From positions 2,658 through 66,657 of the forward strand of contig JBBSCB010000002.1 in the NCBI GenBank assembly GCA_038250675.1: 64,000 bases of DNA, read 5' to 3'. The translations under genes were made by a program, and so were the position numbers. Positions 19,654 to 22,414 of this stretch are shown in pieces. Origin of the DNA: Gemmatimonadales bacterium. GTDB lineage: Bacteria; Gemmatimonadota; Gemmatimonadetes; Gemmatimonadales; GWC2-71-9. The stretch's first letter is position 1; the number at the start of each line of letters is the position of its first letter. The notes below the pieces were generated by a model. The model was given only the letters and a program-made list of their open reading frames with translations, was not told where the DNA came from and searched no databases.

Positions 19654-20546
19654 GTGGAGGCTGGAACGCGGCCGACGGCGGCGGGACTCGATGGGCCGTC
19701 CCGCCGGTCGAGATTGGCCTGCAGCACCGCCGTGCAGGCGCGGACGCCAACGCCGCCATCAGCCGGACCCTTCAACCGCCCGCCAGACAGGAACAGATCG
19801 CTGAGCGCATCGTCGATTGCACCTTGTGCCGCGAAGAGGCACGGGGTGCTGTAGATGACCAGCGAGACCCCGGCCTGACGAAGCTCCGCCAGATCATACG
19901 ACGGTGACTTGCCGCCCGCGATCTGGTTGAACACGAACGGCCGACCGATCTCTCGGCTCAGCGCTCGCACCAGCTCGAGGTCGCGAAGGCCGTCGATCAG
20001 GACGGCATCGGCACCGGCGTCGGCGTAGGCACGGACCCGCCGCGCCGCGTCGTCGGGGTCGGTGGCGTCGGTACGGGCTACGACGAACAGCTCGCGCCGG
20101 GTCAGGAGCACCTGCTCGAGCTTCTCCACGTAGTCCGGAAGATCCATGAGCTGCTTGCCATCGAAATGACCGCACCGGCGGGGCCGCTTCTGGTCCTCGA
20201 GCACGACGCCCGATGCACCGGCCCGCTCCAGCTCGCTCACGACATGACAGGCGACGGCGGGATCGCCGTACCCATCGTCGATATCCACCAGCAGGTGATG
20301 CAACGGCAGGACCGTGCGCAACCGACGGACGAAATCGAGGATATCGGTCCAGGTGATGAACCCCACGTCCGGCAGCCCGTAGTGACTGGCCGCGAACCCG
20401 AATCCGCTCAGGAAGAGCGCATCCGAGTGGCGCGCGGCACGCGACGCGCTGAACACGTCGTACACGCCTAGAAAGGGAACCGCTGGACCGTGCCGCTCCG
20501 CGTGACTCACGGCGGCGCGGAGGCCCGCACCCGGATTGGCGCTCAC
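19650..20546 (-). CDS. Isocitrate lyase/PEP mutase superfamily enzyme, lyase-type (methylisocitrate lyase / oxaloacetate hydrolase-like)
   Basis: LFLSGFGFAASHYGLPDVG, LLVDIDDGYG, VVLEDQKRPRRCGHFDGKQL (EDQ...K/R-R-CGH lyase signature), VVARTDA. GTGA overlaps on both sides. Confidence 0.85.
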   Translation of the reverse strand: MSANPGAGLRAAVSHAERHGPAVPFLGVYDVFSASRAARHSDALFLSGFGFAASHYGLPDVGFITWTDILDFVRRLRTVLPLHHLLVDIDDGYGDPAVACHVVSELERAGASGVVLEDQKRPRRCGHFDGKQLMDLPDYVEKLEQVLLTRRELFVVARTDATDPDDAARRVRAYADAGADAVLIDGLRDLELVRALSREIGRPFVFNQIAGGKSPSYDLAELRQAGVSLVIYSTPCLFAAQGAIDDALSDLFLSGGRLKGPADGGVGVRACTAVLQANLDRRDGPSSPAAVGRVPAST

Positions 20547-22414
20547 GCGACGTCCGCCAGCTGGCTGCCGAGACTCTCCGCCATGCCGGCAATGGTAGGC
20601 GCGTCGAACAATGCCAGCAGAGAGAACTCCACATGCAGCGCCTCGCGCAGACGCGCGGCCAGCTGCGCCGCCAGGATCGAATCGCCGCCGACCGCGAAAA
20701 AATTGTCGTGTACGCCACCCGGGCTGCGGCCGAGGACCCCGGCCCAGATGGAGGCGATCACTTCCTCGACCGGCGTCCGCGGCGCGACGCTTTCAGTCGG
20801 CGCGAGCGGCCACTCCGCCTCGATTCCGAGCGTTGCGGCCAGCCCGATGCGCTTGGGCTTGCCGGTTGGGCCCTTCGGCAGGGACTCGAGGAACACGATT
20901 CGGCGCGGCACCTTGAAATACACCAGCCGTCCGGCGACATGCTCCCGCAGCTCGAACGGTGACGCGACGGCACCGGGTCGCAGCACGACCGCCGCGGCGA
21001 CCTCTTCGCCGAGCGCCGGGTGCGGCACCGCAAAACTCAGCGCCTGTCCCACCGCCGGGTGCGCCATGAGCGCCTCGTCGATCTCGAGCGGTGAGATCTT
21101 CTCGCCGCCGCGATTGATCAGCTCCTTCAGCCGCCCGGTGAGGAAGAGATAGCCGTCCTCGTCGAGATGCCCCTGGTCGCCGGTACGGAACCACCCATTG
21201 GTGAATGCGGCCGCGTTGGCCCCGGGGTTGTGCGCGTACCCCGGCGTGACGTTGGGCCCGCGGATGACCACCTCGCCGGTGGCGCCGGCCGGGAGCAGGG
21301 CACCAGCCGCATCCATGATGGCGATCTCGGGGCCCGCCGCGAGGCCGACAGAGCCGGCCTTCCGCTCCCGCGGCGGGAGCGGATTGCTCGCCATTTGATG
21401 CGCGGCTTCGGTCATGCCGTACGCCTCGACCACGGGCACGCCGAACGTGCGCTCGAGCTCGAGCAGCGTGGGGCGCGGAAGTGCTGACGATGAGGACCGG
21501 ATGAAGCGAAGCCTCGAGCGCGCGATGATGTCGGCATGTTCGCCGGCGCGATCCAGTATCGCCTGGTGCATCGTGGGCACCGCGGTGTACCAGGTCGGCG
21601 CAAACTCCGCAATCCAGTCAAAGAAACGCGGCGCCTGAAATCCGGGCGGGCACGCCACGCTGGCGCCGGCCGCGAGCGAGGAGAGCGTCGCGCCGATCAG
21701 ACCGTGAATGTGGAAGAGCGGCATGACGTTGAGACAGCGATCGGCCGGACTGAGAGCCAGCGCCCGGCCGATGTGGCCGGCCGACGCCGCGAGATTGGCG
21801 TGTGCGAGTGGTACCATCTTGGGGCGGGAAGTCGTTCCCGAGGTATGGAGCGCCAGGGCGACGTCATCGGGTGACGGCTCACGAACCTCCGCCGCCGCCG
21901 GCAACAGGCCGTCGACGGTAAACCGGCCGGCCGTCTCACCTGCGGCCGGTGCAAGCTCCATGATGCCGATGCCCCGGGCTCGGGCCACGTCACGCGCGGG
22001 CGAGTCGAGGTCAGTGGCGATGAGCAGCGCCTTCGCGGACAGATCGTCGAGATAGAACTCGAGCTCCGCTCGGCCGTACGCAGGATTGAGCGGGGCGCAC
22101 ACCGCGGCACCGGCCACGGAGAGGAACGCAGTCGCCATGTCGGGACCGGTGGGGACTATCACCGCGACGGCATCGCCGCGCCCGAGCCCACGGTCGGCCA
22201 GCGCGGAGGCGACGCCACCCATGTGGGCCATCAGCCCGGCGAACGACAGCGGCGGGCGGTCCACCGAGTGAATGGCGAGCGCGCTTGGCGTGCGCTCCGC
22301 GCGTCGGGCAATGAGCTCGGGAAGAGTGCTCGGATGCGACAAACCGATCTCCCTGAATACGAGTGGACCGCCGGAGTGCAAGTCCCATGCTCTGGCTGCA
22401 CTCCGCCGGACCAT
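20543..22414 (-). CDS. AMP-dependent acid ligase (AAE3/Pcs60 oxalate-CoA ligase-like) fused to C-terminal carrier (PCP/ACP) domain
   Basis: [111 protein letters not shown], then the carrier motif [15 protein letters not shown]. An alternative TTG start at 22342 is preceded by AGGGAG. Confidence 0.9.
   Translation of the reverse strand: [623 protein letters not shown]

What the first reader, a model, noticed from the sequence alone, without database searches (positions are those of the whole stretch)
20543..22414. Oxalate-CoA-ligase-family enzyme fused to a phosphopantetheine carrier domain
Long colinear stretches match what I recall of Arabidopsis AAE3 and yeast Pcs60, both oxalyl-CoA synthetases. 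The stretches are [142 protein letters not shown] and FKVPRRIVF...[11 protein letters not shown]. Members of that clade are normally stand-alone CoA ligases. This one ends in a ~75-aa carrier domain ([22 protein letters not shown]), which redirects the activated acid to a thiotemplate line instead of CoA. The start codon is ambiguous: ATG 22414, or TTG 22342 preceded by AGGGAG. The latter matches the AAE3 N-terminal length better.
Basis: partly seen in the sequence, partly recalled or inferred. Interest (0 to 1): 0.6.

Follow-up and report, generated by a model that had tools for sequence, protein, structure and literature searches.

The report
Oxalate-type loading module of small NRPS
This bacterial gene joins an enzyme of the plant/yeast oxalyl-CoA-synthetase type to a carrier domain. 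It sits in a three-gene operon with an oxaloacetate-hydrolase-like lyase and a one-module peptide synthetase. It therefore most likely starts synthesis of an N-oxalyl amino acid, a pathway type that is widespread in soil bacteria but that I could not find described.

Summary
ORF 20543-22414 (-) encodes an adenylation enzyme plus a phosphopantetheine carrier domain. The best start is TTG 22342, giving 599 aa. The adenylation part is 44% identical end-to-end to Arabidopsis AAE3. Its best solved-structure matches, by sequence and by predicted fold, are the three known oxalyl-CoA synthetases, with about twice the score of the next ligase family. All three oxalate-contacting residues of AAE3 are kept, as Ser309, His339 and Lys519.

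The gene overlaps by 4 nt a PEP-mutase/isocitrate-lyase-family lyase. That lyase has the catalytic Cys loop and the serine that goes with oxaloacetate hydrolase activity. It in turn overlaps by 4 nt a C-A-T-TE synthetase whose thioesterase uses Cys.

The most likely pathway is: oxaloacetate to oxalate, oxalate loaded as oxalyl-S-carrier, condensation with one amino acid to an N-oxalyl-aminoacyl thioester, then release.

The fusion is not rare. It occurs in 33 of 80 related loci from species-representative genomes, across at least ten phyla, often fused directly to NRPS modules. No paper on an oxalyl-primed NRPS was found. The substrate and product are inferred, not shown. I rate it a new variant of a known kind, with interest 0.6.

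The parts
22349..22354 (-). Shine-Dalgarno-like AGGGAG, 6 nt upstream of the TTG start
   Evidence: Read directly from the sequence.
20543..22342 (-). Loading didomain gene (A-T), 599 aa from TTG 22342. The alternative ATG 22414 would give 623 aa.
   Evidence: ORF. Pfam AMP-binding + AMP-binding_C + PP-binding. The NCBI-annotated identical protein is 599 aa. Residue numbers below use the 623-aa frame.
20858..22309 (-). Adenylation domain of the oxalyl-CoA-synthetase (AAE3/Pcs60) clade, residues 36-519. Pocket residues: His235-Ile236-His237, Ser308-Ser309, Gly333-Met334, His339, Lys519.
   Evidence: PDB sequence search. BLASTP 44% identity to AAE3. Foldseek top 7 hits are all oxalyl-CoA synthetases. 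Pocket mapping.
20576..20761 (-). Carrier (T/PCP) domain, residues 552-613. The phosphopantetheine-attachment Ser579 lies in GGDS (nt 20678-20680).
   Evidence: Pfam PP-binding E 1.8e-16. G552-G553-D554-S555 (599-aa numbering) are invariant in 20 homologues. Position.
19650..20546 (-). PEP-mutase/isocitrate-lyase-superfamily C-C lyase, 298 aa. Its start overlaps the A-T stop by 4 nt. Key features: Cys125 in EDQKRPRRCGH and Ser233 at the oxaloacetate-hydrolase marker position. Proposed oxaloacetate hydrolase (oxalate supply).
   Evidence: Pfam PEP_mutase E 1.2e-38. It scores below the cut-off of every NCBIfam equivalog. It is about equally distant from PDP, DMML, PrpB and OAH structures. Ser/Pro marker alignment. 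OAH-serine literature.
15544..19653 (-). Single-module NRPS, C-A-T-TE, 1369 aa. Its start overlaps the lyase stop by 4 nt. Domains: C 18205-19542 (HHIACDG, His172); A 16684-18141 (specificity code DAATCGGVVK); T 16411-16602 (Ser1045); TE 15547-16338 (nucleophile Cys1171 in GYCDG, His1346).
   Evidence: Pfam. Code. TE nucleophile alignments. Residue positions.

Best explanation
Genes 22342->15544 on the minus strand form a self-contained three-gene NRPS operon.

Step 1 (inferred): the lyase, of the PEP-mutase/isocitrate-lyase family with a Cys gating loop and an OAH-type serine, cleaves oxaloacetate to oxalate and acetate.

Step 2 (family and pocket shown, substrate inferred): the adenylation domain is a bacterial member of the oxalyl-CoA-synthetase clade. 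It converts oxalate and ATP to oxalyl-AMP. It then thioesterifies the oxalyl group onto the phosphopantetheine arm of its own fused carrier domain (Ser579) instead of onto CoA.

Step 3 (architecture shown, chemistry inferred): the C domain of the downstream C-A-T-TE protein condenses oxalyl-S-T with the amino acid loaded by its A domain. The code DAATCGGVVK suggests a roomy hydrophobic pocket. The intermediate is an N-oxalyl-aminoacyl-S-T.

Step 4 (inferred): the Cys-type thioesterase takes over the acyl chain and releases it, by hydrolysis, transfer or cyclisation.

The expected product is an N-oxalyl amino acid or a derivative of one. Chemically this is a 2-oxoglutarate mimic and a metal-binding oxalamate.
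For: Architecture:
- A + T domains with an intact GGDS serine.
- 4-nt start/stop overlaps link all three genes.
- The C domain has an intact HHxxxDG motif.

Clade membership:
- 402/398/356 bits to the three solved oxalyl-CoA synthetases, against 212 bits for MatB.
- 44% identity to AAE3 over the full length.
- An AlphaFold model (pLDDT 81) has its seven best Foldseek PDB hits all among oxalyl-CoA synthetases.

Pocket:
- AAE3 pocket residues are V215-H216, C288-S289, A313-M314, H319 and K500. S289, H319 and K500 touch oxalate, and S289 and H319 are conserved only in oxalyl-CoA synthetases (PMC8905533).
- Here the pocket reads I-H, S-S, G-M, H, K, so all three contact residues are kept.
- The nine-residue string also covering AAE3 His214 (HIHSSGMHK) is found in 70 of 86 bacterial relatives.

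Recurrence of the thiotemplate context:
- Of 36 carrier-fused loci examined, 19 have a C domain fused to or following the A-T, and 6 are A-T-TE.
- Many 50%-identity representative clusters start with this A domain and run to 800-6000 aa.

Lyase link:
- The same lyase subfamily sits next to AAE3-like A-T genes in L001, L012 (two copies), L030, L054, L057, L084, L089, L095, L096, L125, L131, L142 and L158.
- All full-length members aligned keep Cys in RPR(R/K)CGH and Ser at the position where OAH (3lye) and petal death protein carry Ser, while DMML and PrpB carry Pro.
- Oxalate is the only known product of this lyase branch that fits an AAE3-type pocket.
Against: - No enzyme of the bacterial clade, fused or stand-alone, has been characterised as far as I could find.
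- Three of the eight pocket-lining residues differ from the plant enzymes (V>I, C>S, A>G), so a slightly different small acid is possible.
- The lyase is about equidistant (107-122 bits) from PrpB, DMML, PDP and OAH, so it is not an OAH orthologue.
- In a metagenome scan this lyase subfamily more often follows a different ~510-aa ANL ligase (about 37 loci). That ligase has a non-OCS pocket (FGHGSGISK), so the lyase product need not be oxalate.
- Only about one in seven carrier-fused loci from genomes carries the lyase.
- Stand-alone bacterial homologues are not next to oxc/frc oxalate-catabolism genes.
- The C domain resembles ordinary elongation C domains (Txo1/2, TycC), not acyl-starter C domains.
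- No PPTase is present in the window.
Confidence: 0.6

Rival explanations
1. The architecture and role as an NRPS loading module are as proposed, but the acid is not oxalate. It would be another very small polar acid, such as glyoxylate, glycolate, oxamate, malonate or its semialdehyde, or pyruvate. It would either be made by the neighbouring lyase from a different 2-hydroxy or 2-oxo diacid or be taken from central metabolism.
For: - The bacterial pocket differs from the plant pocket at 3 of 8 positions, and Ala313>Gly adds space.
- The lyase is not closer to OAH than to PrpB or DMML.
- The lyase also pairs with a ligase family that has a different pocket.
- Stand-alone homologues lie beside FAH-family hydrolases, an ABC transporter and a GntR/FCD regulator, not beside oxalate-catabolism genes.
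Against: - The two residues reported as specific to oxalyl-CoA synthetases (Ser289, His319) are kept in all but one of 86 relatives.
- The V>I change offsets the space gained by A>G.
- The serine marker of the lyase points to oxaloacetate hydrolysis.
Confidence: 0.22
2. The A-T loads oxalate as proposed, but the lyase-family protein does not supply it. Instead it acts later. It would bind the oxalyl thioester or the N-oxalyl product as a 2-oxo-carboxylate ligand on its Mg2+ site and catalyse C-C bond formation or cleavage on it.
For: - The lyase subfamily is almost always coupled to an adenylating enzyme of one kind or another. About 46 of about 52 loci with enough upstream flank show this (my tally). 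That would also fit an enzyme working on activated acyl intermediates.
- Oxalyl compounds are classic ligands of this superfamily (my own knowledge).
- The subfamily has its own conserved changes, DIDDG and NQIxGG, compared with the aligned lyases of known structure.
Against: - To my knowledge no member of the superfamily acts on carrier-bound substrates.
- Most A-T/NRPS loci work without the lyase, as expected for an accessory supply enzyme.
- The gene order loader-lyase-NRPS, with the C domain as the obvious acceptor, leaves no need for another step.
Confidence: 0.12
3. The protein is an ordinary oxalate/acyl-CoA ligase for catabolism, and the carrier domain is vestigial or is an annotation or assembly artefact.
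For: - About 60%-identical stand-alone ~510-aa homologues exist in many Alphaproteobacteria.
- In the NJ tree they nest among the fused forms.
Against: - The carrier domain scores E 1.8e-16, and GGDS is invariant in the 20 aligned homologues.
- The same architecture is seen in the best 120 database homologues and in 33 of 80 genome loci from many phyla.
- The gene is translationally coupled to an NRPS.
- No oxalyl-CoA decarboxylase or formyl-CoA transferase gene turned up among the genes annotated on either side of the operon.
Confidence: 0.03

Closest known systems
Oxalyl-CoA synthetases AAE3 (Arabidopsis, PDB 5IE0/2/3), LsOCS (Lathyrus, 6QJZ) and Pcs60 (yeast, 8AFF)
   Same: - ANL fold.
- 44% identity to AAE3, colinear over the whole length.
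- The same three oxalate-contact residues, plus His216 and Met314.
- These are the top sequence and fold matches.
   Different: - The known enzymes are stand-alone, eukaryotic, peroxisomal or cytosolic CoA ligases used for oxalate degradation or beta-ODAP synthesis.
- This protein is bacterial, carries a fused carrier domain and is wired to an NRPS.
- Three pocket-lining residues differ (I/S/G for V/C/A).
Acyl-loading (A-T, or ligase + carrier) initiation of NRPS lines. Examples: EntE-EntB and other aryl-acid loaders, fatty-acyl-AMP-ligase/ACP starters, and the Acinetobacter AB3403 C-A-T-TE module fed by a separate ligase/carrier pair.
   Same: - A non-amino-acid carboxylate is adenylated, parked on a carrier and handed to the first C domain.
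- AB3403 has the same C-A-T-TE layout and also a Cys thioesterase, GGWCFGG. What I say about its operon is from my own knowledge.
   Different: - The known starters are aryl acids or fatty acids, activated by DhbE/EntE-type or FAAL-type enzymes.
- Here the loader descends from the oxalate-specific clade, and the acyl group would be a two-carbon, charged diacid.
Fungal oxaloacetate acetylhydrolase (OAH, PDB 3LYE) and plant petal death protein (1ZLP), from the lyase branch of the PEP mutase/isocitrate lyase superfamily
   Same: - TIM-barrel PEP_mutase domain.
- EDQ...K/R-C-G-H gating loop with the catalytic Cys.
- Ser at the position that is Pro in DMML and PrpB.
   Different: - Only 107-121 bits to these enzymes, and equally far from PrpB and DMML.
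- It forms a bacterial subfamily of its own, with DIDDG and NQIxGG motifs.
- It is always next to adenylating enzymes.
- Its activity is untested.
Cys-nucleophile NRPS thioesterases ObiF1 (beta-lactone) and SulM (beta-lactam)
   Same: - Cys replaces the usual Ser. Cys is described as the less common nucleophile (PMC11298585).
- A polar residue follows the Cys: Asp here, and Asn in six related loci. This resembles the Cys-Asn of SulM.
   Different: - No Gln-Cys-Asn motif.
- Only weak sequence similarity to any solved TE (best 41 bits, NocB).
- There is no evidence for a beta-hydroxy or beta-amino substrate.

Membership tests
Oxalyl-CoA synthetase clade (AAE3/Pcs60) of the ANL superfamily | ANL fold with core motifs: P-loop [9 protein letters not shown], YGMTE, and the catalytic Lys of the C-terminal subdomain | tested here: met
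   Pfam AMP-binding + AMP-binding_C. Motifs seen in the alignment. Lys519. AlphaFold model pLDDT 81.
Oxalyl-CoA synthetase clade (AAE3/Pcs60) of the ANL superfamily | Closer to characterised oxalyl-CoA synthetases than to any other characterised ANL family | tested here: met
   356-402 bits against 212 bits for MatB. Foldseek ranks 1-7 are all OCS. Plant OCS are sister to the bacterial clade in an NJ tree. A full ML tree with other ANL families was not made.
Oxalyl-CoA synthetase clade (AAE3/Pcs60) of the ANL superfamily | Oxalate-contact residues Ser289, His319 and Lys500 (AAE3 numbering) | tested here: met
   Ser309, His339 and Lys519.
Oxalyl-CoA synthetase clade (AAE3/Pcs60) of the ANL superfamily | The other five pocket-lining residues: Val215, His216, Cys288, Ala313, Met314 | tested here: inconclusive
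   Ile, His, Ser, Gly, Met. Two are identical and three are conservative changes. The same set occurs in 70 of 86 bacterial relatives. The effect on specificity is unknown.
Oxalyl-CoA synthetase clade (AAE3/Pcs60) of the ANL superfamily | Stand-alone enzyme that uses free CoA as thiol acceptor | tested here: not met
   A carrier domain is fused at residues 552-613. The acceptor itself cannot be tested with these tools. I therefore call it an OCS-clade adenylation domain, not an oxalate-CoA ligase.
Oxalyl-CoA synthetase clade (AAE3/Pcs60) of the ANL superfamily | Oxalate-dependent adenylation and thioester formation | not testable with these tools
   Needs an enzyme assay.
NRPS initiation (loading) module | Adenylation domain followed by a carrier domain with the conserved Ser in GGxS | tested here: met
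NRPS initiation (loading) module | A downstream condensation domain with HHxxxDG in the same transcription unit to accept the acyl group | tested here: met
   C-A-T-TE gene at 15544-19653 with HHIACDG and 4-nt gene overlaps. Homologues exist with A-T-C-A-T-TE in one polypeptide.
NRPS initiation (loading) module | A phosphopantetheinyl transferase available | tested here: inconclusive
   None in the 64-kb window. One is adjacent in L002, and an Sfp-like C-terminal extension, recognised by eye only, is apparently fused to the L001 NRPS.
Oxaloacetate acetylhydrolase / lyase branch of the PEP mutase-isocitrate lyase superfamily (neighbour gene) | PEP_mutase TIM-barrel domain with a catalytic Cys in the K/R-C-G-H gating loop | tested here: met
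   Pfam E 1.2e-38. RRCGH with Cys125.
Oxaloacetate acetylhydrolase / lyase branch of the PEP mutase-isocitrate lyase superfamily (neighbour gene) | Active-site serine associated with OAH activity (Ser in OAH and PDP, Pro in DMML and PrpB) | tested here: met
   Ser233 aligns with the Ser of 3lye (MIFSF) and 1zlp (AHSL). The marker is cited in PMC3256194 and PMC8224569. That this is the marker position rests on my recollection of Joosten 2008 and Narayanan 2008.
Oxaloacetate acetylhydrolase / lyase branch of the PEP mutase-isocitrate lyase superfamily (neighbour gene) | Orthology to a characterised enzyme (score above a curated equivalog cut-off) | tested here: not met
   Best NCBIfam match is prpB at 161 bits against a cut-off of 354. 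PEP mutase scores 75 against 320. It is therefore neither a methylisocitrate lyase nor a PEP mutase by these models. NCBIfam returned no oxaloacetate-hydrolase family among the matches.
Cys-type NRPS thioesterase (ObiF1/SulM kind) | Nucleophile Cys in the GxCxG elbow, with a downstream His | tested here: met
   GYC(1171)DG aligns with the NocB Ser and the AB3403 Cys. His1346.
Cys-type NRPS thioesterase (ObiF1/SulM kind) | Gln-Cys-Asn motif and the other SulM criteria for beta-lactam formation | tested here: not met
   The motif here is Tyr-Cys-Asp.

The most novel reading that the evidence does not exclude
Soil and freshwater bacteria of many phyla carry a large, unstudied family of NRPS lines primed with oxalate. 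The phyla include Gemmatimonadota, Acidobacteriota, Verrucomicrobiota, Cyanobacteria, Chloroflexota, Planctomycetota and Nitrospirota.

The loader evolved from, or gave rise to, bacterial oxalyl-CoA-synthetase-like ligases. Some clusters bring their own oxaloacetate hydrolase, and most use a Cys thioesterase.

The products would be N-oxalyl amino acids and short N-oxalyl peptides. These are natural analogues of N-oxalylglycine, so they would be candidate inhibitors of 2-oxoglutarate-dependent enzymes or metal chelators. This would be a new natural-product class and the first oxalyl-S-carrier intermediate.
Probability: 0.4. Interest if true: 0.75.

Novelty: new variant of a known kind. Interest (0 to 1): 0.6.

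Why it matters
Acyl-primed NRPS lines are well known, but I could find none primed with oxalate. Four full-text searches for an oxalyl-loaded carrier protein or NRPS found nothing.

If the reading is right, three things follow:
- A whole clade of loading modules gets a substrate. Genome-mining tools would otherwise call them generic AMP-binding or CoA-ligase domains.
- It predicts a family of N-oxalyl amino acid or peptide metabolites in phyla with almost no known chemistry. N-oxalyl amino acids are classic 2-oxoglutarate mimics.
- It would identify a bacterial oxaloacetate hydrolase subfamily.

It also shows an enzyme clade switching its thiol acceptor between CoA and a fused carrier domain with an almost unchanged acyl pocket. 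The three-gene cassette is small enough for direct heterologous expression.

Tried and rejected
- Source contig. Look-up of the contig through the identical protein P0001 found nothing on record. Cluster look-up gave no names or accessions. The organism is therefore only inferred to be Gemmatimonadota-like, from the nearest homologues.
- Phosphonate reading of the PEP_mutase gene: rejected. It scores 75 bits against a 320-bit cut-off for true PEP mutase. It has the lyase Cys loop, EDQKRPRRCGH, instead of what I recall as the mutase EDK...NS motif (from my own knowledge).
- Methylisocitrate lyase reading: rejected as orthology (161 against 354 bits). The window also shows no propionate-catabolism context.
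- Acyl-starter type C domain: not supported. The nearest solved C domains are ordinary elongation types. CDA-C1 and RzmA starter C domains score only 73-80 bits.
- M28 peptidase upstream and the RpiB/HAD/pentose-phosphate genes downstream as cluster members: rejected. They are not conserved next to homologous cassettes.
- Oxalate-catabolism genes next to stand-alone bacterial homologues, which would have supported oxalate specificity. The neighbour families found in at least 5 of the 47 loci that I annotated were FAH-family hydrolase, ABC transporter, GntR/FCD, SDR and Zn-ADH. None was oxc or frc.
- Rfam scan of the window: no hits.
- Promoter and terminator scan of the operon: nothing above chance.
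- PPTase, extra carrier or extra NRPS genes in the window: none.
- Stachelhaus code DAATCGGVVK: I could not match it to a known specificity. Codes of the first A domain differ widely among related loci, so no single product is conserved.
- The representative-library search was ranked by total score, which favours multi-A-domain proteins. It therefore could not give the ratio of fused to stand-alone forms.

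
Full report
**Observation**

Pfam finds AMP-binding (residues 36-393, E 1e-71), AMP-binding_C (444-519) and a PP-binding carrier domain (552-613, E 1.8e-16). The attachment serine is Ser579 in GGDS.

The TTG at 22342 is the better start. AGGGAG lies six nt upstream. The identical protein in an NCBI genome is annotated as 599 aa. With that start the N-terminus is colinear with AAE3.

**Which adenylating enzyme it is**

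- Against all PDB sequences, the top matches are Arabidopsis AAE3 (402 bits, E 3e-119), Lathyrus oxalyl-CoA synthetase (398 bits) and yeast Pcs60 (356 bits). The next ligase family, malonyl-CoA synthetase MatB, scores 212 bits.
- BLASTP gives 44% identity to AAE3 over 501 columns with ten gap positions.
- An AlphaFold model built on 20 homologues (mean pLDDT 81) has its seven best Foldseek PDB hits all among oxalyl-CoA synthetases. The best superposition is on 6QJZ (rmsd 3.2 A, TM 0.86 on the target).
- NCBIfam's nearest model is "FadD7 family" at 426 bits, below its cut-off of 650. No curated bacterial family therefore claims the protein.

**The acyl pocket**

The grass-pea OCS paper summarises the AAE3-oxalate complex (PMC8905533). 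The pocket is formed by Val215-His216, Cys288-Ser289, Ala313-Met314, His319 and Lys500. Ser289, His319 and Lys500 contact oxalate. [quoted passage not shown]

In the window protein these positions are Ile236-His237, Ser308-Ser309, Gly333-Met334, His339 and Lys519. All three contact residues are kept, and the other changes are conservative. The same pocket, written with AAE3 His214 as the nine-residue string HIHSSGMHK, occurs in 70 of 86 bacterial relatives. It is the same in relatives with and without a carrier domain, and only one relative lacks the His.

**Genomic context**

The A-T gene is the first gene of a tight operon.

- Its stop overlaps by 4 nt the start of a 298-aa protein (19650-20546).
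- That gene's stop overlaps by 4 nt the start of a 1369-aa NRPS (15544-19653).
- The NRPS is C-A-T-TE. It has an intact HHIACDG motif, carrier Ser1045 and specificity code DAATCGGVVK.
- The flanking genes are not conserved next to homologous cassettes. Upstream is a secreted M28 peptidase. Downstream are RpiB-like, HAD, 6PGDH-like, G6PD, 6PGL and GH15 genes.
- No PPTase or further NRPS gene is in the window.

**The middle gene**

It belongs to the PEP mutase/isocitrate lyase superfamily (PEP_mutase, E 1.2e-38). It falls far below the cut-off of every curated equivalog: PrpB 161 against 354, CPEP mutase 112 against 420, PEP mutase 75 against 320. Among solved structures it is about equally distant (107-122 bits) from a Bacillus PrpB-like protein, petal death protein, 2,3-dimethylmalate lyase, PrpB and fungal oxaloacetate acetylhydrolase.

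It has the lyase-type gating loop EDQKRPRRCGH with Cys125. At the position where OAH (MIFSF) and petal death protein (AHSL) carry Ser, and where DMML and PrpB carry Pro, it has Ser233 (VIYST). As I recall, OAH and petal death protein are the two of these enzymes known to hydrolyse oxaloacetate. [quoted passage not shown] That this is the same position rests on my recollection of Joosten 2008 and Narayanan 2008 (OAH Ser281 corresponding to DMML Pro240), which the alignment numbering fits.

Oxalate is the only known product of this lyase branch that would fit an AAE3-type pocket. I therefore read the gene as a dedicated oxalate supply: oxaloacetate to oxalate plus acetate.

**Recurrence elsewhere**

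The best 120 database homologues are nearly all ~600-aa proteins with a PP-binding domain. They come from Gemmatimonadota, Armatimonadota and unnamed metagenome bins.

A scan of one genome per species returned 80 loci, and I mapped their domains with phmmer.

- 47 loci are stand-alone ~510-aa enzymes, mostly from Alphaproteobacteria and about 60% identical.
- 33 loci carry the carrier domain. They come from Gemmatimonadota, Acidobacteriota, Verrucomicrobiota, Cyanobacteria, Chloroflexota, Nitrospirota, Planctomycetota, Bacteroidota, Actinomycetota, Binatia and several Proteobacteria.
- Counting three further loci fetched by protein look-up (36 fused loci in all), 19 are followed by or fused to a C domain. 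For example L008 and L018 are single A-T-C-A-T-TE proteins.
- Six are A-T-TE tridomain proteins.
- The rest are A-T alone.

An exhaustive search of 50%-identity representatives lists many 800-6000-aa proteins that begin with this A domain.

The cassette closest in synteny to the window is A-T, then lyase, then NRPS. It appears in L001, L057, L084, L096 and L158 (and, cut off by the contig end, in L089, L131 and L142). L002 has A-T, then C-A-T-TE, then a PPTase, without the lyase.

In an NJ tree rooted on an NRPS A domain, the plant enzymes are sister to the whole bacterial clade. The stand-alone bacterial forms nest within a grade of fused forms. This tree lacks other ANL families and has no support values.

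**The lyase subfamily**

A reverse scan of metagenome contigs with an alignment of the lyase subfamily gave 80 loci.

- Nine have the AAE3-like A-T next to the lyase.
- About 37 have a different ~510-aa ANL ligase directly upstream. It has no close characterised relative and a different pocket, FGHGSGISK.
- That second ligase is preceded by a conserved ~460-aa protein without a Pfam domain. It is sometimes followed by an LtaS-like sulfatase-family protein.
- Only four loci with at least 1.5 kb of upstream sequence show no ligase at all.

The subfamily is therefore almost obligatorily coupled to adenylating enzymes. That fits an acid-supply role. It also means the acid need not be oxalate in every context, and this is the main weakness of the oxalate-supply step.

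**The thioesterase**

The nucleophile elbow reads GYCDG. The Cys aligns with the catalytic Ser of NocB and with a Cys in Acinetobacter AB3403, which is also a C-A-T-TE protein.

- Cys is present in 17 of 22 TE domains from the first set of loci and in 3 of 5 from the second.
- It is often followed by Asn or Asp.
- Cys is described as the less common TE nucleophile. It is known from the beta-lactone-forming ObiF1 and the beta-lactam-forming SulM, and SulM has a Gln-Cys-Asn motif (PMC11298585; PMC6668435).
- The window TE does not meet the SulM motif. It also has an Arg/Trp-rich lid insertion.

Release chemistry is open. Hydrolysis would give an N-oxalyl amino acid. Transfer or cyclisation is equally possible.

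**Mechanism proposed, with status of each step**

1. Oxaloacetate to oxalate plus acetate by the lyase. Inferred.
2. Oxalate plus ATP to oxalyl-AMP, then oxalyl-S-T on Ser579. Family, pocket and carrier domain are shown. Substrate and acceptor are inferred.
3. Condensation with the amino acid on the NRPS carrier. Architecture and coupling are shown. The C domain is of the ordinary elongation type, not the acyl-starter type.
4. Release by the Cys-TE. Inferred.

I give the whole scheme 0.6. The statement that this is an NRPS loading module of the OCS clade is much safer, at about 0.9. I put oxalate as the acid at about 0.6-0.65, and the lyase as oxalate source at about 0.5.

**Comparison with what is known**

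The system works like any acyl-primed NRPS initiation, such as aryl-acid or fatty-acid loaders or the AB3403-type single module. It uses a loader from the oxalate-specific ANL clade.

It is a member of the OCS clade by sequence, fold and contact residues. It is not an oxalate-CoA ligase in architecture. Four full-text searches for an oxalyl-loaded carrier protein or NRPS found no such paper, and the two hits I opened mention oxalyl only in passing. The library does not cover most subscription journals.

I therefore class it as a new variant of a known kind. The particular gene is one ordinary member of a large uncharacterised family.

**Verdict**

It is extended by the lyase, the Cys-TE and the wide distribution of the family. 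Interest is 0.6. This is a coherent, testable prediction of a new starter unit and product class in poorly studied phyla, but it is still entirely computational.

Noticed in passing
window 15547-16338 (TE domain; Cys1171 at nt 16141-16143); also the TE domains of L001, L002, L003, L004, L006, L009, L010, L015, L017, L018, L024, L037, L057, L072, L084, L096, L158: The thioesterases attached to these oxalate-type loaders mostly use Cys instead of Ser as nucleophile: 17 of 22 in the first set of loci and 3 of 5 in the second. The Cys is often followed by Asn or Asp. The window TE also has an Arg/Trp-rich insertion of about 70 aa in the lid region.
   Followed up: partly
L087, L103, L105, L109, L111, L117, L133, L139, L154, L161 and about 27 more metagenome loci (e.g. 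L103:3754-9751): The same lyase subfamily more often sits in a different conserved operon. The order is: an unknown ~460-aa protein with no Pfam hit, a ~510-aa ANL ligase of an uncharacterised family (pocket FGHGSGISK), the lyase, and sometimes an LtaS-like sulfatase-family protein. The function is unknown. It may be an envelope-modification system.
   Followed up: partly
P0121 (3462 aa, metagenome protein): This protein has four tandem AAE3-like adenylation domains followed by T-C-A-T-TE. Pfam finds five AMP-binding stretches but only two PP-binding domains. It could be a real multi-loader or an assembly artefact.
   Followed up: no
L003, L009, L010, L017, L024, L072 (A-T-TE proteins of ~860-900 aa): The oxalate-type loader also occurs as a stand-alone A-T-TE tridomain protein without any C domain nearby. 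In L003 it lies among glycosyltransferase, sulfotransferase and asparagine-synthase genes. This suggests direct transfer of the acyl group to some other acceptor.
   Followed up: no
L011-L083, stand-alone homologues (e.g. L027:8452-10005, L034:5047-5916, L049:7565-9301): The ~60%-identical stand-alone bacterial ligases have the same pocket as the fused forms. They are flanked in 12 loci by a fumarylacetoacetate-hydrolase-family protein, and less often by an ABC transporter and a GntR/FCD regulator. No oxalyl-CoA decarboxylase or formyl-CoA transferase was seen. An unannotated ORF directly downstream recurs in 31 loci and may only be a shadow ORF.
   Followed up: partly
L001:12729-20852: The two-module NRPS of this syntenic cassette seems to carry a C-terminal Sfp-like phosphopantetheinyl-transferase extension. 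I recognised it only by eye in the alignment.
   Followed up: no
L012:4864-9341: Two ~95%-similar copies of the lyase gene flank one A-T(-X) gene in a Terrimicrobiaceae contig.
   Followed up: no
window 11184-15482 (minus strand): Directly downstream of the NRPS lies a run of pentose-phosphate genes on the same strand: RpiB-like, HAD hydrolase, 6-phosphogluconate-dehydrogenase-like, G6PD and 6-phosphogluconolactonase. A GH15 glucoamylase-like gene follows. These are ordinary housekeeping genes and are not conserved with the cassette.
   Followed up: partly
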